The notes beneath the pieces were generated by a model. It saw nothing but the letters and a program-made list of their open reading frames with translations, ran no database searches and was not told where the DNA came from. Position numbers and translations under genes: made by a program. Below are positions 28,616 to 44,074 of a DNA stretch of 64,000 nucleotides, one piece after another; position 1 is the stretch's first letter, and the number at the start of each line of letters is the position of its first letter. The DNA is from Candidatus Nitrosomirales archaeon (GTDB lineage Archaea; Thermoproteota; Nitrososphaeria; Nitrososphaerales; UBA213), in assembly GCA_049199595.1 (NCBI GenBank), contig JBMCYV010000004.1:32350-96349 (forward strand), written 5' to 3'.

Positions 28616-28631
28616 TTTATCATATTTAATT
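28616..28631. repeat. 16-bp direct repeat, left copy (putative att site)
   Basis: TTTATCATATTTAATT, identical to 31968-31983. Confidence 0.6.
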
Positions 28632-28726
28632 ATGTAAATCTTAAGTATTAATTGCTGTCATAGCGCTGAACCGATGCGGGTTCGGTGGTTTCAGTGACGC
28701 TAACGGTTCAAAAAGAGAATTTTCGT

Positions 28727-29620
28727 TTAGGACTCGCAGTTAATTTGTTTACTATCTCTTCTAGACCCGCCGCCAAGGCTACAAATATCAGTTCCGTCTC
28801 CACCATCTATATCATCATTACCAGCATTTCCATTTATCATATCATCACCAGCTTCGCCGAACAGAAAGTCGTGATTTCCATTTCCACCGTATATCCTATC
28901 ATTTCCATTTCCACCGTATATCCTATCATTTCCACCTTTTCCATATATCCTATCATTTCCACCGTCTCCCTGTATCTCATCACTTCCTGCCTGTCCAATT
29001 ATCCTATCATTTCCATCTCCTCCCTGTATCACATCATCACCAAATCCTCCACAAATAGTATCTTTACCACCTCGTCCATCTATGGCATCGTTGCCCTTCA
29101 GACCAGTAATGACATCATCCTCTGGAGTACCTTCAATTGTATCATCACCCCGAGTTCCCACTATGGTTGCTTCCTTTCCACCACATACCACCACGACGTT
29201 GAACTCAGCACTGAGCTTTGCTAATACTTCAGGTCCAGAGAGAGGTGGATTATTTATATCAAAAGTAGTGTTTATGAAAATCGCTTCCACTATCCAGTGT
29301 CCACCTATGTCTGGTCTAAAAGATGAATAGTGAGGTACACTGGGAGAACATCCATCTAGACACCATCCCCCCGCTAGATTTACTACACTATCTGGAGCTA
29401 TCCACCTAAATGCAACACCATGAGTACTACTATCAGGAAAAGATGCCTTTGCTAATATTTGTTGATCAGCAATAACAAATTCGCCAAGTGGATTCCCCGA
29501 ATCATCAAAGAGCTCCAAGTTGTAAGAGGTTGATATCATTTGTGATTTTACTGTATTCACTGGAGTTGTAAATACAAGAATAGCTCCTATCAGTACAAAT
29601 ACTGTTAATCTTGTTATCAA
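28727..29620 (-). CDS. secreted protein with RTX-type (hemolysin-type) Ca2+-binding nonapeptide repeats
   Basis: N-terminal signal-like helix. C-terminal region has about 10 GGxGxDxIx repeats (GGDGNDRIIG, GGNDRIYGKGGNDRIYGGNGNDRIYGGNGN...). TTG start. Confidence 0.8.
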   Translation of the reverse strand: MITRLTVFVLIGAILVFTTPVNTVKSQMISTSYNLELFDDSGNPLGEFVIADQQILAKASFPDSSTHGVAFRWIAPDSVVNLAGGWCLDGCSPSVPHYSSFRPDIGGHWIVEAIFINTTFDINNPPLSGPEVLAKLSAEFNVVVVCGGKEATIVGTRGDDTIEGTPEDDVITGLKGNDAIDGRGGKDTICGGFGDDVIQGGDGNDRIIGQAGSDEIQGDGGNDRIYGKGGNDRIYGGNGNDRIYGGNGNHDFLFGEAGDDMINGNAGNDDIDGGDGTDICSLGGGSRRDSKQINCES

Positions 29621-29850
29621 CTACGTTAAAGTTGTTATACCTATCATTACTCTTAAATTTATATGAAACATAGGTTGCCATTTTCTATATCACGAGTTAT
29701 AGATTCTTCTCATGGGCTATTTTGTTATTCTAGACAGTTTCAAATGTTAACACTTTCTTGTAGATATCTCTTACTATGGGTTCAAATTTTGAAAGATTAG
29801 CCCTGCTCACTTCTATCATGTTCAAAAGTGGGCGATAGTTATTGACATCA

Positions 29851-30381
29851 TTATTCCTTACTTTCTAGCGATAATAACAAATCATCAATAGTCTTCCTCA
29901 ATTCGTTATAGTGCCACTCTAATTGCTTTGCTAATCGTTCAGCAATGATATGTGCATTATTATGTGTAAACATAGGTGTCATATAGAATTTTTCTACCTG
30001 ATTTGCCACGTCATTACATCGTTCAACAGTTATGTAAAAATTGTCAAGTTTCACCTGTGCATCAATAGGCAATAATCGAATGTTGCCCGTATCAATTGCA
30101 TTCTTAGAAGCTGGAGCTGTCATGAAGACAGAGTCCCCTTCAAATAGGTGCTTGCCATCATCCCACTTAACTCCAAGATGTGAGTCTTTGAAGCTATTTT
30201 GCATATACTTCAATTCCTTTATAAGTGATGAAACTGTTTGATGTTTAAGCTCTCTGGTTTCTTTGCTTTTCTTCCATTTTTCAAATAATATCCCAAACAC
30301 AAAGCCAAGAAATGCGCCAATGAGTACACCAAATAAATCAATTACAAATTCTAAAACTGGATCAGAAGTAGGTGCTGACAT
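29851..30381 (-). CDS. hypothetical membrane-anchored protein
   Basis: 176 aa, one N-terminal TM helix (LFGVLIGAFLGFVFGILF), no recognisable motif. Confidence 0.5.
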   Translation of the reverse strand: MSAPTSDPVLEFVIDLFGVLIGAFLGFVFGILFEKWKKSKETRELKHQTVSSLIKELKYMQNSFKDSHLGVKWDDGKHLFEGDSVFMTAPASKNAIDTGNIRLLPIDAQVKLDNFYITVERCNDVANQVEKFYMTPMFTHNNAHIIAERLAKQLEWHYNELRKTIDDLLLSLESKE

Positions 30382-30573
30382 ACCATAGCCATACTACGTA
30401 CTTGCTTAAGAGAACTATTGTTTGGCATGTAGATTAGCTACAGTTGGATACAATTACATGTACTAGTTTAGATATCGAATCCTATTTCATTTGCTTGGGA
30501 AGTGCTAATCCATTAAGATTAGCACTATCGGTATCATAATGGACATGGATATGTACACTAGGTATCGACAAAA

Positions 30574-30648
30574 TCTTTCTCAGGTATGTACAAAGGAATG
30601 GCATGGTCTTTCTCAGGAATGGTCACAGGAATGGTCATACGAATGGTC
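30574..30648. repeat. short iteron cluster
   Basis: TCTTTCTCAGG occurs twice (30574-30584, 30607-30617). GGAATGGTCA-type 12-nt units occur 3-4 times (30593-30649). Confidence 0.6.
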
Positions 30649-30733
30649 TAGTTTGTCCATAGGTAGTACGCCACACGTAGTTTTAGTTTGTCCATAGGTA
30701 GTACGCCACACGTAGTTTTAGTTTGTCCATAGG
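30649..30733. repeat. 35-bp tandem repeat, 2.4 copies
   Basis: TAGTTTGTCCATAGGTAGTACGCCACACGTAGTTT at 30649-30683 and 30684-30718, both exact, with a partial third copy from 30719. Confidence 0.9.
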
Positions 30734-30759
30734 ATAGTAGCCCATAGCATTATGCCATT

Positions 30760-31909
30760 CTAATCCAGAAAATCTTCTTGTACTGCAATAACATGCTTCT
30801 GAAGTGAAGGAAAGCGACCCTTCATATCCTTAGGTGTGAGTTTGCCATTTCTAACGAGTTCTGTGACTAATTCTACCATGTCAGATTCAACGCCTTCAAT
30901 CCTTTCCATCTTCTCCTTCATAGTCTTGATCTCTTTCTGTGTATATTTCACCTCTTTCAGAAGAACGTCAGCATTGCCTATAGTGAGATGAGGCTCGACT
31001 TGCTGGTATAGCTCAGATCTCTCCTCAGCGGTCTTCTTGAAGTATGTATCAAGGTATTCGGAATGTCCCATCAAGGCATGCGCTATATCTGAACCCACAA
31101 TAGGAGCAACTGTACTGTAGAAGAACTTCCTGAGTGTGAAGGTGAATCCTGAACCTTGTATGATCATCTATCTTCTGGTTCAGATCAGGAAGCTTCCTGA
31201 GCATTTTTCTGAAGGATGCTGAAGCGTTATTTGCTGCCTGAACAGCATCATCATAATCTCCAAATACAAAACTATCTAATCTATTCATTCTATAACCTAA
31301 AAAGTCCTTCATCGCAATCGTTGCCTCTTCTGTAATAAAGGTCTCCCTAGCCTCAGACGTTTTGGTTGACATTGGTCTTATCATGATTCTGGTTGGAGTG
31401 CTGTCAAAGTTAATGTCCCTAACACGTAGAGCCAAGGCTTCTCCTATACGCATACCACTAGAACATAACACAAGGAGTAACGTCTTGAACCTAGGATTGC
31501 ATACATTTAGAATCCTTGCTATTATCTCTCTTGTTATCGGATCATCATGGAACTTGAACTTTGTAGGTAGTGAAACCTCTTGCTTGAAATCCTCGTTGTA
31601 GATCTTCACACCATGAAACCGTAGGTACTTTTTCGCATAGGCAGTGTATGTTTGAATCGTGCCTGGGGCCTTCCCGTTTCTGTCCAGATAAGCGACAAAG
31701 TTATCCAGCAACTTGTATGGATCAAGACGATCAGACTTGACCTCGTTAATGACTTCGTTAAGGCTCTTCACGAACGTATTCGTGCAGAACTCGTTGAAAG
31801 CCTTCACGGCAAACTTTGCAAGCGTCATGGACTTGCGGCTATGACTCTTGCGAAATATCTTTTCATAAAAGTAATCGTCATCGTTCTGGATTAATCCTTG
31901 TCTCTCCAT
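30760..31909 (-). pseudogene. tyrosine recombinase/integrase, frameshifted
   Basis: The N-terminal ORF (31049-31909) carries SGMRIGEALALRVRDI (box I Arg). The catalytic C-terminus (GFTFTLRKFF...HALMGHSEYLDTYF) is in another frame (30760-31167). The frames switch near 31150-31170. Confidence 0.8.
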
Positions 31910-31963
31910 AGCAAATAGTTCGGTACTATACTATAAAAACGTAAATTAATACTTGAATAAAAT

Positions 31964-32938
31964 CTATTTTATCATATTTAATTTGCCCAACTTTGCCTCG
32001 ATAGCATTCATTAGCATTTTTGCAAGCTCATCTTCGCCAACCTTTACAGAAAGTGATGCGGCTGTAGGATGACCTCCTCCTAAATCAGTGAGCTTACCTG
32101 CTATGTCTGTTCCGAGATGAAGTTTCGATTCATTGTAAAATTTCTGTGTTGCCCTCAGGCTCGCTTTTGATGCTTTTTCATCTCCGCCAACTACTATTGC
32201 AACATCAGCTCCAAGATCCAGCAGTGCTCTTGCTGCAGATGCCTGAAATGAACCTACACGTGAAAAAGCTGCGATGAAGCTGTTTGCACTATACACTGAT
32301 ACTCGTTGTGCTGCCTTCAGTCTAGCAATTCTTTCAGAAGGATCTCTTTCATGAGTCAAGACCTTCTTTGCTAATTCCAAAGATGCCCCGTGTTTACACA
32401 GATCGTTTACTGCCTCGATTGTCTTGCTGCTAGCAAGAAACAGATGCTGTGAATCTGCCATTATCCCTACCAGAAGTACTTGCGCTATCTGCTTGCTCAT
32501 CTTGACCTTGTTTTCCTTGTAAAGACGGTAAACAAGTTCGCTCGCAGAAGATGCCCTCGTGTCTACAAATTTTGCGTTTGCCAACTTTTCTCCGTTCTTG
32601 GCCATCGGATGGTGATCTATCAACACCTTCCTTGCCTTGCTAGTGATTATCTCATCCTTCATTTGCGATAAGAGCAGCGGGTTGTTTGTGTCAACAATGG
32701 CTATTAGATCGGCTTTAGCAAAATTTGGGTTGTTGTCAATACTCATAGGAAATTTTTTGCTCACTTGTTCCGCAATTGTGTTCAGTCCTTCCGGCAGCAC
32801 GACCTTTACATTGGATCTTGTAATTGATCTTAAGAGATTGGCCGTTGCATATGCCGAACAATAAGCATCTACATCGGCAAGTCTGTGCGTAATCACATAA
32901 ACTAGCTTGTATTTTTGTTTAGACAGTAAAGATCGCAA
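31964..32938 (-). CDS. DHH/DHHA1-family phosphoesterase (NrnA/RecJ-like)
   Basis: HRLADVDAYCSA (motif I), DTNN, LIDHHP (DHH motif), C-terminal GGGHPTAAS (DHHA1). Confidence 0.85.
   Translation of the reverse strand: MRSLLSKQKYKLVYVITHRLADVDAYCSAYATANLLRSITRSNVKVVLPEGLNTIAEQVSKKFPMSIDNNPNFAKADLIAIVDTNNPLLLSQMKDEIITSKARKVLIDHHPMAKNGEKLANAKFVDTRASSASELVYRLYKENKVKMSKQIAQVLLVGIMADSQHLFLASSKTIEAVNDLCKHGASLELAKKVLTHERDPSERIARLKAAQRVSVYSANSFIAAFSRVGSFQASAARALLDLGADVAIVVGGDEKASKASLRATQKFYNESKLHLGTDIAGKLTDLGGGHPTAASLSVKVGEDELAKMLMNAIEAKLGKLNMIK
31968..31983. repeat. 16-bp direct repeat, right copy (putative att site)
   Basis: TTTATCATATTTAATT. Overlaps the last codons (..LNMIK*) of the DHH phosphoesterase gene. 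Confidence 0.6.
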
Positions 32939-39563: not shown

Positions 39564-40006
39564 TGGTGAAGGTTGAGCTTTATCCAGCGTCAAGAAAGAC
39601 TGCAAGGGCCGCTGCAAGCATAATCAAGGGTTCTGGAAGGGTAAGAATAAACAACATACCAGCGGAGATAATTACCCCTGAATTAGCTAGGGAGATTATT
39701 CTTACGCCAATTGAACTTGCTGGCGAAGCGAGGAATAAAGTAGACATCATAGTTAGAGTCGATGGAGGAGGTCAAATTGGCAGGGCTTTTGCGAGCGCGG
39801 TTGCCATATCCAAAGCCTTGACGGGTCATACTAAGGACGGGAAGGACCCGAAGGATCATCCGTTGCCAAAATCTGTAAGAGAGGAAATAAAGGAAAAATT
39901 GGTTGCCCATGACAAGCACCTGCTTTCGGGCGATCCTAGACAGACAGAACCCAAGAAATTTGGCGGACCCGGAGCCAGAAGAAGGAAGCAAAAGTCGTAC
40001 AGGTAG
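39563..40006 (+). CDS. rps9: ribosomal protein S9
   Basis: 147 aa. GGG..GRA.A...AISKAL, C-terminal ...RRRKQKSYR. Confidence 0.93.
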   Translation: MVKVELYPASRKTARAAASIIKGSGRVRINNIPAEIITPELAREIILTPIELAGEARNKVDIIVRVDGGGQIGRAFASAVAISKALTGHTKDGKDPKDHPLPKSVREEIKEKLVAHDKHLLSGDPRQTEPKKFGGPGARRRKQKSYR

Positions 40007-40420
40007 TATTGAAATCGTACTTGTCTCGACTGAACGCACTCCCTCACGCCATTAAAATTTGTCTGGGATAGGGGTCAATATAAAGGGTATATATAGAAAG
40101 CTTGAAATCAGGAAAGAATTATGGAACGGCATCATTTCTATTTGCAGATTGTTTGCAAATGCAAAATCGTACTTGATCTTACTGAGGGCGTTGCCAAATT
40201 TGGGCTGGAGAGGAGGGAATTTTGATGAACTATAATTCTTGTTCGTAAATATAACGTAGGGTTAAGCACTATGTATTATCGTTTTATTAAGAGTAAAAAC
40301 GCATAACTTTGTAGGCCTCTCCTTTATCGTAATATGGCATTATTCTGATAAATGGTTTACGTATTAATTAACCCTTCAATCATGCATAAGATTAGCCGCG
40401 TGAAAAACTTACCGTGTTCA

Positions 40421-40452
40421 GCGGGATTTGAACCTTGTGTCTTCAGGGGTTC
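40421..40452. repeat. 32-nt perfect direct repeat, copy 1 (contains tRNA T-loop-like sequence)
   Basis: GCGGGATTTGAACCTTGTGTCTTCAGGGGTTC, identical to 42594-42625. Confidence 0.95.
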
Positions 40453-40506
40453 ATATGCAATCTTGTAATAGGCATCAAGAGACTAATTTGGCAATAGCGT
40501 TAATTC

Positions 40507-40598
40507 AGAGCTCGAAGCCCCGAGCGGACTCAGACAGTCTAAGGGGTAGGAGCACCTTGAGTGGCAGAAGCTGTTGGGGTAGCTACATGGCCCCTACC
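40507..40598 (+). other. GC-rich structured segment (candidate ncRNA or leader)
   Basis: 55 of 92 nt are G+C by hand count, within AT-rich flanks. Hairpins GCTCG/CGAGC and GGACT/AGTCT, GGGGTAG motif at 40543 and 40576, GGGG...CCCC pairing, followed by a T5 run at 40601-40606. Confidence 0.3.
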
Positions 40599-40661
40599 AA
40601 ATTTTTCTGGAATCATATTAACCAGTAAGTGCATAATAGCGATGGAAATTCGGGAACTAAC

Positions 40662-40886
40662 ATGCCTGAACCATTATCTGAAGCCGCACGAATAGCTCTG
40701 GCTTTCGTTAGAGACCATCCTGGGCGCACCTTTGAAGAGATACAGGGTAGTTTGGGTATTGGTATGGAGCGGACGTATTGTGCACTAAGAGAACTCATAA
40801 AGCATAAGCTGATCGTGGTTCATAAGATACCATCTCATCCTTCGCAGACTGATATTAAATATTCATTCGTCTTTTATTCAGTATAA
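40662..40886 (+). CDS. small winged-helix protein (hypothetical)
   Basis: MPEPLSEAARIALAFVRDHPGRTFEEIQGSLGIGMERTYCALRELIKHKLIV is wHTH-like. Start taken at the internal Met of the track ORF. Confidence 0.55.
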   Translation: MPEPLSEAARIALAFVRDHPGRTFEEIQGSLGIGMERTYCALRELIKHKLIVVHKIPSHPSQTDIKYSFVFYSV

Positions 40887-41025
40887 ATTGAGGAGCCGTC
40901 TTGAATGCATAGAACTAACTGAAATCTGACAATCTGGGCTGCTTCTTCTGTTCCCAGACTGCTTCAGGAAAAGTGCTTCCGATCCACAAAACTTTTACAA
41001 TTAAACACTAAACTCTAGTAACTGT

Positions 41026-42546
41026 ATGCAATACCATATTTCGACGATCCCTGTTATCATGATCTTATTAGTGTTCATGTCCATTACACACAACGCCGTT
41101 GCAGAAAATGAATGGAAAACTTACAGTGTAACGATTGATGACAAACAACTTGAGATACCCTACAGGATTACTAATGGTGACATACGTGCGATCCAAGTTG
41201 ATGTTGACTTTGGAAGCCTTATAATAAGCATTGACAGCTTTGAAGATGGTTCTATTCAGTTAAAGTTATTCAAGGTAGTGATAGATGCAGATTATGACGA
41301 ATACCTTGTGCTTATTGATGGAGAAGAATCCACATACGACACACTAGAAATAGCATCTGACTTTCGAACAATAGAGATTCCGTTTATTGGTGACACGGAA
41401 GAAATCGAAATAATTGGCAGCAAGTTTGAGCCGTTAGTACCGGTTTCGCAATCAACCGTACGCATTGGAGGTCATCTGATTGATGGATACTATGTTGTGT
41501 ATGCTAACGAACAGAAGGCTACGTGGGAGGCTAGCCCGCTTGTTTTATACAGCAACGGCACACTATCTGTCAACTTGAAAATGAATTATCTGTCGGAAGA
41601 CCCAACAGTAGCCAGGATTTGCCACTGTTATACTGCAACCCAGCCTACGGAGGTAGTGGCTGAAAATATTAAGCCTGTAGCTTCCGCTGTATTTTTGGAT
41701 CTGGGCATTGTTGTTTCCTTTCAGGGAAATGTCGGTGGTTACAGTATCGGTCGAATTATCCCTGCAGAAGCAAATTCCTTAAATGAGAAATCGGCGGAAG
41801 CATTAATAACTTTCAATTTTCCAAACCTTGCAAATAGCACAACCGGAGCTGGTGGACTCACACTGAGGGTTGCATGGGTAAGGATATTTGAGGATGCAGA
41901 TGGCAATAGGTATTATCAATGGATGCAACCACATGAAACGTATGACGAACATTCTGTCGTGAAAGTAAATGAGAAAGGGAATATCTCTGGCTCATTTCTC
42001 GTTTACTACCCAATTCCTGAAGAATATACTCAACCACTGGACACTTTTGATTATGCGCGATGGATAAGAGAAACAATCCTAAAGGTTCAAGACAGGTCAG
42101 TTATTGTCACAGGAAAGGATCAGCCTGACTTTATGAAGCACTTCGTCATAGAACCTAAAGATATCTGGATCAATAAGATGGAATTGGATCACACACGCAA
42201 GGCCGTGGTCGCTTTCCTTGGAGGAACATACTATAATTCTTCCCTTACTCTAAAACTTCCAAGAGAAATGATTGATGCAAAGTCTGATGGGTCAGACAAG
42301 AATTTCCTAGTGCTTATCGATGGAAAACATGAAGCAAAACATTTTCAAATCAATCAGACTAGCTCCTACAGGACATTGCTGATAGAAATACCAGCTGGTA
42401 CAGCCTACGTAAGAATTATTGGAACTACAGTGGTTCCAGAATTTCCTCACACTGCTCTTACGATTTTTTCAGGCGTTGTACTTCTTGCAGTTATCACTAG
42501 ATTAATGCCAAAACCGAGCCGCAGCTATGATATAACAAATAAGTAA
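41026..42546 (+). CDS. surface protein with PEF-CTERM-type sorting signal
   Basis: 506 aa. N-terminal signal/TM. C-terminus is VVPEFPHTALTIFSGVVLLAVITRLMPKPSR (PEF motif, TM helix, basic tail). N- and C-terminal modules are similar (LVLIDGEE...IEIIG / LVLIDGKH...VRIIG). Confidence 0.75.
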   Translation: MQYHISTIPVIMILLVFMSITHNAVAENEWKTYSVTIDDKQLEIPYRITNGDIRAIQVDVDFGSLIISIDSFEDGSIQLKLFKVVIDADYDEYLVLIDGEESTYDTLEIASDFRTIEIPFIGDTEEIEIIGSKFEPLVPVSQSTVRIGGHLIDGYYVVYANEQKATWEASPLVLYSNGTLSVNLKMNYLSEDPTVARICHCYTATQPTEVVAENIKPVASAVFLDLGIVVSFQGNVGGYSIGRIIPAEANSLNEKSAEALITFNFPNLANSTTGAGGLTLRVAWVRIFEDADGNRYYQWMQPHETYDEHSVVKVNEKGNISGSFLVYYPIPEEYTQPLDTFDYARWIRETILKVQDRSVIVTGKDQPDFMKHFVIEPKDIWINKMELDHTRKAVVAFLGGTYYNSSLTLKLPREMIDAKSDGSDKNFLVLIDGKHEAKHFQINQTSSYRTLLIEIPAGTAYVRIIGTTVVPEFPHTALTIFSGVVLLAVITRLMPKPSRSYDITNK

Positions 42547-42585
42547 ATAACAATTCTGTAAATTTATTTTCAAATTAAAAATTAT

Positions 42586-42607
42586 TGGGGCCGGCGGGAT
42601 TTGAACC
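42586..42607 (-). pseudogene. tRNA 3'-terminal fragment (T-loop to discriminator)
   Basis: The minus strand reads GGTTCAAATCCCGC-CGGCCCC-A, i.e. T-loop, T-stem 3' strand, acceptor 3' strand and A73. No matching T-stem 5' strand, anticodon arm or D arm lies upstream. Confidence 0.6.
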
Positions 42608-42625
42608 TTGTGTCTTCAGGGGTTC
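42594..42625. repeat. 32-nt perfect direct repeat, copy 2
   Basis: Identical to 40421-40452. Here it is preceded by TGGGGCCG, the reverse complement of a tRNA acceptor 3' end. Confidence 0.95.
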
Positions 42626-42921
42626 TTGAATACAACATTGGCAACGACAGGAAGGTTACATATTTATCCGAATTGTTAGAATTAGAGTACTAATCCGGAC
42701 AAGGATTTACGTATCAACAATTGCATTGTTGCCAAAGAAACTGTTATAAAATTTACTTCATATTTTAGCTACTGTTAAAGACTGTTCGTTAATGTTGAAG
42801 ATGGCGTAAAACATTCCCGAATATTGATCCAAATTATAGTGTAAAGATGTTAAAGCGATGGATCGATAACCATAAGCCCGTCTTCGGGTTTTAATAGATT
42901 CCACACATCACATGAGTGATC

Positions 42922-43116
42922 TTAACTAAAACCTAATTTTTTCAACATTCTATATACAGTTGATTTTGGGAGGAATGTCTTCCTAGCTATCTCTCTCATA
43001 CTCATGCCCTCTAACCTAAGAGAAAGTACCTCTCCATATTTTTCCTTAGGATATTTGAGCGGTCTCCCTCTTCGCTTTATGTTAATGACCGGAGGTTTTC
43101 CATATTTTGGCGTATT
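42922..43116 (-). pseudogene. remnant encoding a resolvase/recombinase-type C-terminal HTH
   Basis: Open frame with no plausible start: ...KRRGRPLKYPKEKYGEVLSLRLEGMSMREIARKTFLPKSTVYRMLKKLGFS*. Resembles the GRP...HTH tail of serine recombinases. No catalytic domain lies upstream. Confidence 0.4.
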
Positions 43117-43331
43117 CTATTATACCTGCTTCGCCAAACTTTATTCTTTCGTTCGTTCACATATCATGTGTTTAACTTAATAATTACTTTAGTTTGCGCG
43201 TCCGCTAGGCCAGAAGATTTCAAGGAAGCATGCAGAAACTTGAAGAAATAACGCGACACAGAAGAAAACTAATATTGGTACAAAAATTAAGACGACAGTA
43301 GACACGAAATATTCGAAAAGCTTTTCGCAAA

Positions 43332-43547
43332 CTATCTTGCTCTCCTGTAAACTATTTCATTAGACCTCTTAACGTAAACGATCCTGCTTGCAGGTATGGT
43401 CTGAAAATCCTCGGAAAGTTTCAGGAAATCCTGAAGAGGAACTTGTTTGATTTCGTCAAAATCTCTATATCCTATCATATACAGTTTTGGGTCGTCTGCA
43501 TGTAATGCCTTGCTTATTATCTCCTGTAACCTCCCCTTTCTGGCCAT
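43332..43547 (-). CDS. UPF0248/DUF504-family small protein
   Basis: 71 aa. ...YMIGYRDFDEIKQVPLQDF...IPASRIVYVKRSNEIVYRR matches the DUF504 pattern. Confidence 0.7.
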   Translation of the reverse strand: MARKGRLQEIISKALHADDPKLYMIGYRDFDEIKQVPLQDFLKLSEDFQTIPASRIVYVKRSNEIVYRRAR

Positions 43548-43588: not shown

Positions 43589-44074
43589 ATGGGAAAGAAA
43601 GGAAAGGAGATTGTAGGTCCTGCGGTCAACGAAATTGTTAACATGCTGAAACGCGCGTATGCTGATGAGATGATGGCCTTCCACTTTTACTGGTACACGT
43701 CGATCTACATGCAGGGACTGGGATTTGCAACTTTGGCAACGACCTTCAGGAATAATGGAATGGGTGAGCTGAAACATGCAGAGCTACTGGCAGACAGACT
43801 GAATCAATTAGGCTCTGCCGCATTTAGCAATCCAGCAGAATGGGTAAAGAATAGCAACGTGGGTGATGTGGATCCTGAAAAATATCTATCAATGAAAAGT
43901 GCTGTGCAAAAGGCAATGGAGATCGCTGGAACGGTAACAGAACATTACAACGAGATCGCCAAAAAAACACAGCATACTGATTATGTTACATACGAAATAG
44001 TGGCTGGAATACTAACTGAAGAAGTTAAGGAAGAGCAAGACCTAGAAGATATACTTACAAACCTAGAAGTCTAG
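43589..44074 (+). CDS. ferritin-like / Dps-like di-iron protein
   Basis: 161 aa four-helix pattern. ...AYADEMMAFHFY..., GELKHAELLADRL, ...EEVKEEQD. Confidence 0.8.
   Translation: MGKKGKEIVGPAVNEIVNMLKRAYADEMMAFHFYWYTSIYMQGLGFATLATTFRNNGMGELKHAELLADRLNQLGSAAFSNPAEWVKNSNVGDVDPEKYLSMKSAVQKAMEIAGTVTEHYNEIAKKTQHTDYVTYEIVAGILTEEVKEEQDLEDILTNLEV

What the first reader, a model, noticed from the sequence alone, without database searches (positions are those of the whole stretch)
40421..42625. Perfect 32-nt direct repeats carrying a tRNA 3' fragment bracket a 2.1-kb segment in an atypical arrangement
GCGGGATTTGAACCTTGTGTCTTCAGGGGTTC occurs at 40421-40452 and 42594-42625. On the minus strand its last 14 nt are a T-loop plus T-stem 3' strand (GGTTCAAATCCCGC). 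Only the second copy continues into an acceptor 3' strand plus discriminator (CGGCCCC-A). Neither locus has the T-stem 5' strand, an anticodon arm or a D arm, so no intact tRNA exists. tRNA 3' ends are the classic att sites of archaeal integrative elements. However, the copy with the true tRNA 3' end is on the opposite side from that expected for a simple insertion into a minus-strand tRNA gene. This implies successive integration and deletion events, or recombination between elements. The bracketed DNA encodes only a wHTH protein and a PEF-CTERM surface protein, with no integrase.
Basis: partly seen in the sequence, partly recalled or inferred. Interest (0 to 1): 0.6.

Follow-up and report, generated by a model that had tools for sequence, protein, structure and literature searches.

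The report
Mobile gene cassette with tRNA-derived ends
The two identical 32-base repeats are most likely the joints left when a small mobile gene cassette recombined into a leftover docking site of a sister element; its family normally plugs into the proline-tRNA gene of soil ammonia-oxidising archaea, so this is a well-resolved but ordinary case of mobile DNA, not a hidden or broken tRNA gene.

Summary
The 32-mer is exact at 40421-40452 and 42594-42625, with none expected by chance. Fourteen of its bases are positions 52-65 of tRNA-Pro, and only copy 2 continues into the acceptor strand and discriminator. The window holds no tRNA gene.

The repeats are att-type junctions of a family of small elements that target tRNA-Pro(GGG) in soil Nitrososphaerales.
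- **Sibling at the real tRNA gene.** In the window's own metagenomes, a contig of matching depth shows a ~3.1-kb sibling in the real, intron-containing tRNA-Pro gene in classical geometry. A second contig (L086) shows the same.
- **Tandem copies.** Another contig (L071/L072) carries tandem, attP-like junctions.
- **Flank swapping.** Left and right flanks swap combinatorially, exactly at a 14-nt core.

In the window, the 2.14-kb cassette sits in a sibling att remnant, not in the tRNA gene. It carries a wHTH gene and a PEF-CTERM gene and has no integrase. The remnant lies inside a 2.74-kb strain-specific block between rps9 and an MJ1316-like gene. A co-occurring strain about 95% identical lacks the whole block.

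The "wrong-side" acceptor end is the element-borne tRNA end, which is where it should be. What is missing is the tRNA body.

This is a known kind of thing: site-specific accretion of a CIME-like, integrase-less element. Excision and the responsible integrase are not shown.

The parts
40174..40181 (.). Left copy of the 8-bp direct repeat TGATCTTA. It bounds the 2.74-kb strain-specific block.
   Evidence: A contig of a strain about 95% identical, seen in runs X2 and X4, joins 40143 to 42939 with 40 nt between. Re-alignment places the break at TGATCTTA on both sides. The 8-mer occurs 5 times in the window, so it is weak on its own.
40182..40420 (+). Outer left arm (LF). It is non-coding. Positions 40335-40420 are a conserved module, containing GGTTTACGTATTAATTAAC (40354-40372) and TTTACGTAT (40356-40364).
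   Evidence: LF-like sequence at 82-86% identity precedes R-type sites at two other loci (L072 312-396, L071 1156-1239). TTTACGTAT occurs only twice in 64 kb, here and in the right arm. The block 40339-40372 also occurs at another locus of the same metagenome population.
40421..40452 (+). Repeat copy 1 (junction LF|core|a-arm). Positions 40421-40434 are the 14-nt core, equal to tRNA-Pro positions 65-52 read on the minus strand. Positions 40435-40452 are the first 18 nt of the element's P' arm.
40453..40561 (+). Continuation of the P' arm of the inner element (ATATGCAATCTTGTAAT...).
   Evidence: It is conserved at 82-85% up to 40527 after R-type sites in L071 (3338, 4932) and L072. X1/X2 siblings start with ATAT... 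or ATATGAAATCTTGTAAT.
40562..40598 (+). Conserved non-coding motif TGGCAGAAGCTGTTGGGGTAGCTACATGGCCCCTACC, followed by a T-run, upstream of the wHTH gene.
   Evidence: It is conserved in L094 (94.7% identity over 40563-40934) and in the distant L080 (7139-7183). Its function is not determined.
40662..40886 (+). 74-aa putative wHTH (MarR-like) protein gene.
   Evidence: ORF. PHROG MarR-family hit at E=0.0057. A 97%-identical copy lies next to a PolB gene end in L094, with no R.
41026..42546 (+). Gene for a PEF-CTERM-type secreted or anchored protein (506 aa from 41026; 489 aa if started at 41077).
   Evidence: relatives named PEFG-CTERM sorting-domain proteins. The body is 71.5% identical at the nucleotide level to L079, which lacks R.
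42421..42593 (+). P arm of the inner element. It holds the coding sequence of the PEF-CTERM sorting signal, the stop codon, a 39-nt spacer, the discriminator (42586) and the acceptor 3' strand (42587-42593, minus-strand sense).
   Evidence: The conserved block has a sharp start. 42421-42607 is 91-93% identical to the ends of two different genes (L071 4759-4961, L086 11216-11408), while upstream sequence is unalignable.
42594..42625 (+). Repeat copy 2 (junction P arm|core|18 nt of a-arm, followed by RF).
42626..42916 (+). Outer right arm (RF). It is non-coding and holds the second TTTACGTAT (42706-42714).
   Evidence: Absent from strain B. 42736-42789 is 80% identical to L071 1439-1386. There it lies next to an LF-like module, and both sit between two degenerate R sites. 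TTTACGTAT.
42917..42924 (.). Right copy of the 8-bp direct repeat TGATCTTA bounding the block.

Best explanation
The 32-nt repeats are hybrid attachment (att) junctions made by site-specific recombination, of the tyrosine-integrase type.

**The element family.** A family of small integrative elements in soil Nitrososphaerales uses the 3' end of tRNA-Pro(GGG) as its att core. The reconstructed attP has three parts:
- a P arm, often the last ~125 nt of a PEF-CTERM gene plus its 3' UTR, ending in the element's own copy of the acceptor strand;
- a core, GCGGGATTTGAACC (T-loop plus T-stem 3' strand, within 22 nt of identity to the tRNA);
- a P' arm, TTGTGTCTTCAGGGGTTC-ATATGCAATCTTGTAAT...

**Normal integration.** Integration into tRNA-Pro rebuilds the tRNA from the element-borne 3' end. 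It leaves the displaced chromosomal 3' fragment joined to the P' arm.

**What happened in the window.** The 2.14-kb integrase-less cassette (wHTH plus PEF-CTERM genes) did not recombine with the tRNA gene. It recombined with a sibling att remnant (LF-core-18 nt of P' arm-RF). That gave 32 nt of identity and two junctions: LF|R|P' arm (copy 1) and P arm|R|RF (copy 2).

**What is shown and what is inferred.**
- Shown: the junction anatomy, the tRNA identity, siblings at the real tRNA gene, tandem siblings, and absence of the whole block from a near-identical strain.
- Inferred: that an integrase acting in trans made the joints, that the cassette can still move, and that LF-R-RF pre-existed as a single site.
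For: 1. The repeat is exact and non-random.

2. Its tRNA part equals the 3' end of tRNA-Pro(GGG/CGG).

3. A 4069-nt contig of run X1 reads as follows:
- flank ...AAAAGGA-TGGAGCCG, then R, then ATATCATTAAC...;
- about 3.03 kb of element;
- aaattattGGGGCCGGCGGGATTTGAACC, then CACGACCTCTGGTCTCATGTGAGATCACCA, which is the tRNA-Pro body.
This is a sibling in the real tRNA gene, with the displaced 3' fragment at one end and the intact tRNA at the other.

4. Depth of that sibling tracks the window organism in both runs. In X1 the contig is at 14.1 against 11.5-13.6. In X2 a 1306-nt contig with the same attL is at 42.5 against 36.5-39.7.

5. L086 has the same geometry. A 17-nt perfect repeat CCGGCGGGATTTGAACC sits 4038 bp apart. 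The right copy runs into a tRNA-Pro(GGG) body, and the P arm is 93% identical to the window's.

6. L071/L072 hold P arm|core|P' arm (attP-like) junctions between consecutive cassettes. A 69-nt repeat brackets a 1.6-kb PEF-CTERM cassette.

7. Across about 10 junctions, left contexts (P arm, LF, chromosomal flank, others) and right contexts (P' arm variants, RF, tRNA body) combine freely. They switch exactly at the 14-nt core.

8. The conserved arms total about 300 nt around the core, which is the usual scale of a tyrosine-integrase attP (own knowledge).

9. The whole block is absent from a strain about 95% identical in X2/X4. The closest GTDB relative, L001, has only 66 bp between rps9 and the MJ1316-like gene.

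10. Published background: 57% of thaumarchaeal integrated elements sit in tRNA genes, including intron-containing ones. Their att sites are short (median 17 bp), and tandem reuse of a site is known (PMC6563490).
Against: - No integrase is encoded in the cassette, in the block, or in the sequenced siblings (L071/L072, L086).
- The only integrase gene in the window (30763-31909) is frameshifted and belongs to another element with a different att.
- No empty LF-R-RF site and no circular junction of this particular cassette was seen. The available runs are k=31 contigs, which cannot phase a 32-nt repeat.
- The depth deficit of the inner segment is within plausible noise (8.9 against 11.5-13.6 in X1; 33.5 against 36.5-39.4 in X2).
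- The proposed target (LF-R-RF) is reconstructed, not observed.
- In L086 the displaced fragment stops 5 nt short of the tRNA end, so the history there is also not a single clean event.
- The ~3-kb interior of the X1 sibling could not be read.
- How the 2.74-kb block itself entered the rps9 locus is unresolved. It has only an 8-bp direct repeat and no terminal inverted repeats.
Confidence: 0.7

Rival explanations
1. The same elements are involved, but the joints were made by general homologous recombination or gene conversion between sibling att regions. This would be a one-off rearrangement. The cassette is then a fixed, immobile remnant and R has no present function.
For: There is no integrase in any sequenced sibling cassette. 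The cassette interior is mosaic: the wHTH module recurs beside PolB in L094, and the PEF gene body recurs in L079 without R. No excision products were seen.
Against: A 32-bp identity is very short for homologous exchange. Flank switching occurs at the same 14-nt core in about 10 independent junctions and four metagenomes. R is 97-100% conserved while adjacent arms are 82-93% identical, which suggests constraint on R itself.
Confidence: 0.15
2. R is a dispersed functional motif of PEF-CTERM gene loci, such as a 3' processing or termination signal or a regulatory site. It only resembles a tRNA end, and it is spread by duplication of gene ends rather than by integration.
For: Three P arms include the PEF-CTERM coding end and UTR at 91-93% identity. 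R contains a 6-bp inverted repeat (TGAACC...GGTTCA), read directly from the sequence. The LF module also occurs without R elsewhere.
Against: The tRNA part is not a resemblance. It is identical over 22 nt to tRNA-Pro and is physically continuous with a real tRNA-Pro body in L086 and in the X1 contig. Several R junctions are not preceded by a PEF gene (window copy 1, L072, L071 3338, the X1 attL). PEF homologues exist without R (L079).
Confidence: 0.08
3. One of the copies belongs to a functional but unconventional tRNA-Pro gene: multi-intron, permuted, or a split 3' half that is trans-spliced.
For: The real tRNA-Pro(GGG) of this clade carries a 19-nt non-canonical insertion at position 45/46 and is missed by ARAGORN and Rfam, so negative tool results alone are weak. 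Copy 2 has a perfect acceptor strand plus discriminator, followed by a T-run.
Against: No 5' acceptor strand (GGGGCCG on the minus strand) exists anywhere in the window. The flanks have no tRNA-Pro body similarity above shuffles. The break lies inside the T-stem (51/52), and the upstream 18 nt is shared with junctions that lead into unrelated DNA. An intact tRNA-Pro gene with this 3' end exists elsewhere at matching depth. A whole strain lacks both copies.
Confidence: 0.02

Closest known systems
Thaumarchaeal cryptic integrated elements (CIE) in tRNA genes (Krupovic et al. 2019, PMC6563490), e.g. the 2.6-kb NitUzo-E2 (integrase, wHTH, two hypotheticals)
   Same: The host phylum is the same. 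The target is the 3' part of a tRNA gene, including intron-containing tRNAs. The direct-repeat att sites are short, the elements are very small, a wHTH gene is present, and tandem or nested reuse of sites occurs.
   Different: By definition those elements carry an integrase. The window cassette and its sequenced siblings do not. The window copy is not in a tRNA gene at all but in a sibling att remnant beside the rps9 operon. The P arm overlaps the sorting-signal coding end of a cargo gene.
Cis-mobilizable elements (CIMEs) and site-specific accretion in Streptococcus ICE/IME tandems (review PMC5704250)
   Same: The element is flanked by attL and attR but lacks integration genes. It is found in tandem or nested with related elements through recombination at a shared att derived from a tRNA gene end. 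'Chimeric' internal att sites are present.
   Different: CIMEs are bacterial and conjugation-linked. Mobilization in cis by a neighbouring integrase-bearing element has been shown experimentally for CIMEs and is not shown here. No integrase-bearing partner is adjacent in the window.
Classical tRNA-gene integration by tyrosine integrases, T-loop sublocation (Williams 2002, as cited in PMC6563490; own knowledge)
   Same: The common core is the T-loop plus T-stem 3' strand. The element carries the tRNA 3' end and regenerates the gene, as seen in L086 and the X1 contig.
   Different: In the window, neither junction is part of a tRNA gene. The identity extends 18 nt into a non-tRNA arm, because both partners were element-derived sites.
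Integron gene cassettes (including the integrons reported in Archaea; own knowledge)
   Same: Small, mostly one- or two-gene units share one orientation, are separated by a recurring recombination site, and differ in content between strains.
   Different: There is no IntI gene next to the array. The site is not an attC-type imperfect palindrome but a tRNA-derived direct repeat with long conserved arms. Only 1-2 consecutive cassettes have been seen.

Membership tests
Integrative element inserted in a tRNA gene (tyrosine-recombinase att sites) | Direct repeats bracket the inserted DNA | tested here: met
   Exact 32-nt repeats at 40421 and 42594. Siblings have a 17-nt repeat in L086, a 69-nt repeat in L071 and about 22 nt in the X1 contig.
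Integrative element inserted in a tRNA gene (tyrosine-recombinase att sites) | The repeat is identical to the 3' part of a tRNA gene | tested here: met
   14 nt (copy 1) and 22 nt (copy 2 plus acceptor) match the tRNA-Pro(GGG/CGG) 3' end.
Integrative element inserted in a tRNA gene (tyrosine-recombinase att sites) | One repeat is part of an intact tRNA gene at the insertion site | tested here: not met
   The window has no tRNA, no 5' acceptor strand and no body similarity. The feature is met only by siblings (L086; X1 contig).
Integrative element inserted in a tRNA gene (tyrosine-recombinase att sites) | The element encodes its own integrase | tested here: not met
   phmmer and tblastn with two integrases found nothing in the block or in L071, L072 or L086. 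Pfam, NCBIfam and PHROGs found nothing on the two cassette proteins.
Integrative element inserted in a tRNA gene (tyrosine-recombinase att sites) | An empty site exists in relatives, or excision or circular junctions exist in reads | tested here: inconclusive
   A strain about 95% identical lacks the whole 2.74-kb block. No LF-R-RF site or circle of the inner cassette could be seen, because k=31 contigs cannot phase a 32-nt repeat. attP-type junctions exist only as tandem joints in L071.
Cis-mobilizable element (CIME) | [quoted passage not shown] | tested here: met
   Two intact R junctions and no integrase. Definition taken from PMC5704250.
Cis-mobilizable element (CIME) | It derives by decay from an integrase-bearing element and is mobilized in cis after accretion with one | not testable with these tools
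   The interior of the ~3.1-kb sibling at tRNA-Pro could not be read. No integrase-bearing family member was recovered.
Unconventional tRNA gene (non-canonical intron, split or permuted) | All tRNA parts are present (both acceptor strands, D arm, anticodon arm, both T-stem strands), in cis or as complementary halves | tested here: not met
   The T-stem 5' strand is absent at both copies (CAAGG against the required GYGGG, read directly).
Integron cassette array | An IntI-type integrase with attI lies adjacent to the array, and attC sites have an imperfect-palindrome structure | tested here: not met
   No integrase is adjacent. R has only a 6-bp inverted repeat and is a direct tRNA-derived repeat (sequence).
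IS or MITE-type transposon (for the whole 2.74-kb block) | Terminal inverted repeats plus a target-site duplication | tested here: not met
   There are no terminal inverted repeats: the best end-to-end match of 5 nt is reached by 998 of 1000 shuffles. An 8-bp direct repeat TGATCTTA is present, but that 8-mer occurs 5 times in the window.

The most novel reading that the evidence does not exclude
The R sites may define a cassette platform rather than debris. In this reading, soil ammonia-oxidising archaea carry integrase-less one- or two-gene cassettes that are exchanged in trans at a tRNA-Pro-derived att site. The conserved P arm itself encodes the PEF-CTERM sorting signal. Different surface-protein ectodomains would then be swapped onto the same anchor and shuffled between the tRNA-Pro hotspot and secondary att copies. 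This would be an integron-like or CIME-like system for surface variation.

Three things hint at it:
- All four sequenced or mapped family members are small (1.6-4 kb), and none of the three whose sequence could be read carries an integrase.
- The conserved block begins sharply at the sorting signal in three different genes.
- PEF-family homologues sit in other repeat-bracketed 1.7-2.3-kb segments with unrelated repeats (L081, L080).
Probability: 0.15. Interest if true: 0.65.

Novelty: new member of a known kind. Interest (0 to 1): 0.35.

Why it matters
- **Annotation.** It explains an odd-looking tRNA fragment without invoking a broken or exotic tRNA gene.
- **Mobilome.** It documents, in uncultured soil Nitrososphaerales, a family of very small tRNA-Pro-targeting elements that carry PEF-CTERM surface-protein genes and accumulate at primary and secondary att sites. 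That makes it a likely source of strain-level variation in cell-surface proteins of ammonia oxidisers.
- **Method.** The clade's tRNA-Pro(GGG) has a non-canonical 19-nt insertion that hides it from ARAGORN and Rfam. "No tRNA found" is therefore weak evidence in these genomes.
- **If the cassettes are still mobile.** They would be an archaeal counterpart of bacterial cis-mobilizable elements.

Tried and rejected
**tRNA gene at either copy: rejected.**
- ARAGORN and Rfam (gathering threshold, and E up to 10 on 39800-43400) found nothing.
- A search for the 5' acceptor strand found none.
- Local alignment of the flanks to a tRNA-Pro body was no better than shuffles. A permissive global alignment gave scattered matches in RF that the shuffle test showed to be spurious.

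**Collection scans for the repeat.**
- Exact-pattern scans of GTDB representative genomes for the 32-mer and two junction 20-mers gave nothing or chance hits (Paenibacillus coding sequence).
- Viral contigs held neither the junction nor the 22-nt att.
- Metagenome hits L073 and L074 share only a 21-mer and look like chance.
- The intron-bearing tRNA-Pro 3' part is not in GTDB representatives.

**Synteny.** No relative has a tRNA downstream of rps9.

**Integrase hunt.**
- None was found in the block or in sibling contigs.
- A weak tblastn hit at 42946-43041 (E=2.5, with stops) was dismissed.
- Homologues of the window's frameshifted integrase lead to an unrelated element at the DHH gene, with no R.
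- A paralogous integrase end lies on a 3636-nt contig, not on the tRNA-Pro contig.

**Other negatives.**
- Terminal inverted repeats at the block ends: none.
- RNA runs: none available.
- LF as the native downstream flank of tRNA-Pro: not supported at 80% identity or above.
Full report
**1. The observation**

The 32-mer GCGGGATTTGAACCTTGTGTCTTCAGGGGTTC is present exactly twice, at 40421-40452 and 42594-42625, on the same strand. No shuffle of the window gives any copy, even with 3 mismatches. No further copy appears with up to 7 mismatches.

Read on the minus strand, the last 14 nt are G52-G53, the T-loop and the T-stem 3' strand. Only copy 2 goes on into CGGCCCC-A, followed by a T-rich run.

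ARAGORN finds no tRNA in the 64 kb. Rfam finds none at gathering threshold, nor at E up to 10 around the locus. GGGGCCG or its complement occurs once only, as the acceptor 3' strand itself. Neither flank resembles a tRNA-Pro body more than shuffled sequence does. An independent JGI assembly has the same arrangement.

**2. Which tRNA**

The 29-nt string GGTCGTGGGTTCAAATCCCGCCGGCCCCA retrieves seven Nitrososphaerota genomes. ARAGORN calls tRNA-Pro(GGG) in the two loci checked (L087, L090). Four further loci carry a near-identical gene by eye. One (L091) is tRNA-Pro(CGG).

In a closer relative (contig L086), the same 22-nt end is continuous with a tRNA-Pro(GGG) body: anticodon arm CCAGC-CTGGGGC-GCTGG. 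That body carries a 19-nt insertion exactly at variable-loop position 45/46. Removing it restores the canonical TGGTC. The predicted fold puts the 5' junction in a 3-nt bulge between two 4-bp helices. This non-canonical intron explains why ARAGORN misses the gene. Negative tool results alone would not have been enough here.

**3. Context in the window**

The window is a soil-metagenome Nitrososphaerales contig. Upstream lie exosome, SBDS, rpoD, L18e, L13 and S9 genes. Downstream lie an MJ1316-domain gene, a ferritin-like gene, and leuD and leuC.
- In the closest GTDB relative (L001, S9 84% identical), rps9 and the MJ1316-like gene are 66 bp apart.
- No relative has a tRNA there.
- Contigs of a co-occurring strain about 95% identical, in runs X2 and X4, join 40143 to 42939 with 40 nt between.
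- Re-alignment shows that this strain lacks 40182-42924 (2743 bp). The missing segment is bounded by the 8-bp repeat TGATCTTA.

Both 32-mers, and about 0.53 kb of non-coding DNA outside them (LF 40182-40420 and RF 42626-42916), therefore belong to one strain-specific block. The block has no terminal inverted repeats and no unusual G+C content (0.40 against 0.42).

**4. The repeat is a family of junctions**

*Contig Ga0247727_10006558 (L071/L072).* This is a different chromosomal locus, with deoxyhypusine synthase, PfkB and glyoxalase genes.
- L072 has LF-like sequence, then R, then ATGCAATCTTGTAAT...
- L071 has two copies of a 69-nt site: ...ATTATTGGGGCCG, then R, then ATATGCAATCTTGTAAT... They bracket a 1.6-kb cassette with a different PEF-CTERM protein.
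- L071 also has two degenerate R sites in the opposite orientation.

*L086.* The 17-nt repeat CCGGCGGGATTTGAACC occurs 4038 bp apart.
- The left copy is followed by TTGTGTTTTCAGGGGTTCATATGCA.
- The right copy is preceded by a PEF-CTERM gene end and runs into the tRNA-Pro body.

*Run X1, one of the window's own metagenomes.* One 4069-nt contig contains, in order:
- an 848-nt flank ending ...AAAAGGA;
- TGGAGCCG, then R, then ATATCATTAAC...;
- about 3.03 kb of element;
- aaattattGGGGCCGGCGGGATTTGAACC;
- the intron-bearing tRNA-Pro body.

This is the textbook geometry. The displaced chromosomal 3' fragment, now with one mutation, is joined to the element's P' arm at one end. The element-borne 3' end completes the tRNA at the other. 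A 1306-nt X2 contig has the same left junction. Its depth follows that of the window organism in both runs: 14.1 against 11.5-13.6, and 42.5 against 36.5-39.7. It is therefore probably the same genome.

*Run X4.* It holds three more left contexts and several right contexts.

**5. Anatomy of the site**

Aligning the junctions gives three parts.
- **Core.** A 14-nt core, GCGGGATTTGAACC, is common to all junctions, with a single T-to-C change in the degenerate L071 copy at 1142. Every change of flank happens at its edges.
- **P arm (left of the core in the element).** It ends in the acceptor strand. In three cassettes it is a sharply bounded ~187-nt block (window 42421-42607). The block holds the last 42 codons of the PEF-CTERM gene (the sorting signal), the stop codon, a 39-nt spacer and the 22-nt tRNA end (discriminator to G52). 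It is 91-93% identical between genes whose upstream parts cannot be aligned.
- **P' arm (right of the core in the element).** It reads TTGTGTCTTCAGGGGTTC-ATATGCAATCTTGTAAT... and is conserved for about 110 nt.

A site of about 300 nt with a short core is what tyrosine-integrase attP sites look like (own knowledge).

The core is the T-loop with its stem halves. It is the usual crossover place for T-loop-type tRNA integration (own knowledge; Williams 2002 as cited in PMC6563490).

**6. Reading the window**
- Copy 2 is P arm|core|first 18 nt of a P' arm|RF.
- Copy 1 is LF|core|full P' arm.

This is the product expected if a circular cassette (P arm-core-P' arm) recombined with a site LF-core-18 nt-RF. 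That site is a remnant of a sibling's att, not the tRNA gene. The 32-nt identity is the 14-nt core plus the 18 nt that both partners shared.

LF and RF look like parts of one unit, on three grounds:
- TTTACGTAT occurs only twice in 64 kb: 57 nt left of copy 1 and 80 nt right of copy 2, in the same orientation.
- LF-like modules precede R sites at two other loci.
- In L071, an RF-like piece and an LF-like piece lie side by side between two degenerate R sites.

The acceptor end at copy 2 is therefore where the element's own tRNA end belongs. What is atypical is the missing tRNA body. The "opposite side" argument is not.

**7. What is not shown**
- No integrase lies in the cassette, in the block, or in the sibling contigs.
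- The only integrase gene of the window (30763-31909, minus strand) is split by a frameshift and belongs to another element with another att.
- I could not read the interior of the sibling at tRNA-Pro.
- The public runs are kept as k=31 contigs, which break at the 32-nt repeat. Neither an empty LF-R-RF site nor a circular junction can be seen.
- The slightly lower depth of the inner segment is only suggestive.
- How the whole 2.74-kb block reached the rps9 locus is open. An 8-bp repeat is compatible with the very short att sites reported for thaumarchaeal elements (PMC6563490), but equally with chance.

**8. Comparison with what is known**

Integration of archaeal elements into tRNA 3' ends, short att sites in Thaumarchaeota, targeting of intron-containing tRNAs and tandem reuse of sites are all described (PMC6563490).

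An att-flanked element without integration genes, accreted to related elements, is what bacterial workers call a CIME (PMC5704250). The window cassette meets the descriptive definition. Mobilization in cis is untested.

It fails the tests for the other candidates:
- a tRNA gene, because parts are missing;
- an integron, because there is no IntI and no attC;
- an IS or MITE, because there are no terminal inverted repeats.

I file it as a new member of a known kind.

**9. The most novel reading still open**

All four family members are small, and none of the three that could be read has an integrase. The conserved arm starts exactly at the sorting signal. Related PEF-family genes sit in other repeat-bracketed 1.7-2.3-kb segments with unrelated repeats: L081, next to a 388-aa integrase, and L080.

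The cassettes might therefore be a working system for exchanging surface-protein genes rather than debris. I give this about 15%.

Noticed in passing
window 28616-31983: This looks like a second, unrelated integrated-element remnant. A 16-nt perfect direct repeat TTTATCATATTTAATT (28616 and 31968; the right copy overlaps the 3' end of the DHH-family gene) brackets 3.35 kb. The segment holds a tyrosine integrase split by a frameshift (31049-31909 plus 30760-31167, minus strand), a 176-aa protein and a 297-aa secreted repeat protein. An intact 383-aa orthologue (95% identical) sits at the same place next to DHH in another MAG (L095). The frameshift is present in contigs of both runs.
   Followed up: partly
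L086 11387-11472 (minus strand); also the X1 and X2 contigs seen: The tRNA-Pro(GGG) of this clade carries a 19-nt insertion at variable-loop position 45/46, probably a non-canonical intron. ARAGORN does not detect it. Intron-less versions in other Nitrososphaerota are detected normally.
   Followed up: partly
L081 9810-16825: A homologue of the window's PEF-CTERM protein (27% identity) lies at one end of a ~7-kb segment that ends with a 388-aa integrase. The segment is bracketed by a perfect 22-nt repeat (9810 and 16804). The PEF gene alone is bracketed by a 35-nt repeat (9822 and 11512, 94%). This is a parallel case of a PEF cassette accreted to an integrase-bearing element, with an unrelated att sequence.
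   Followed up: partly
L080 4583-6952 and 7051-7183: In a more distant Nitrososphaerales MAG, the PEF homologue (38% identity) and a 107-aa membrane protein are bracketed by a ~106-nt direct repeat (40 nt at 93% plus 36 nt at 86%, 2.27 kb apart). About 230 nt downstream lies a degenerate R (GAGAGATTTGAACCTTGTGCTTTAAACGATTCATAT), followed by the motif found upstream of the window's wHTH gene.
   Followed up: partly
window 40562-40598: The non-coding motif GGCAGAAGCTGTTGGGGTAGCTACATGGCCCCTACC plus a T-run is conserved upstream of the wHTH gene in L094 and after the degenerate R in L080. It could be a terminator, a promoter or a small RNA. This is unexplained.
   Followed up: no
window 40339-40372: The 34-nt block GGTTTACGTATTAATTAACCCTTCAATCATGCAT of the left arm also occurs, with other flanks and no R, on a 7253-nt contig (X1) and a 9431-nt contig (X2) at the depth of the window organism. 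It contains two adjacent palindromes (TACGTA and TTAATTAA). It could be a protein-binding or promoter module.
   Followed up: no
L094 1-1334; L086 5067-7400: The wHTH module (window 40563-40934, 95% identity) sits directly after the 3' end of a family-B DNA polymerase gene in L094, without R. In L086 the left att junction also follows a PolB gene. In these relatives the tRNA-Pro hotspot may lie next to PolB.
   Followed up: no
window 43155-43299: This is a second strain difference. The ~95%-identical strain replaces these ~145 nt with 33-35 unrelated nt (5c table).
   Followed up: no
window 30649-30753 and 28790-29089: Three tandem 35-nt units (two of them identical) lie just downstream of the broken integrase gene. 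A 27-nt-period repeat lies inside the 297-aa secreted protein gene.
   Followed up: no
window 43589-44074: The ferritin/Dps-like gene between the MJ1316-like gene and leuD is largely missing from the closest GTDB relative. The L001 alignment skips about 43612-43908.
   Followed up: no
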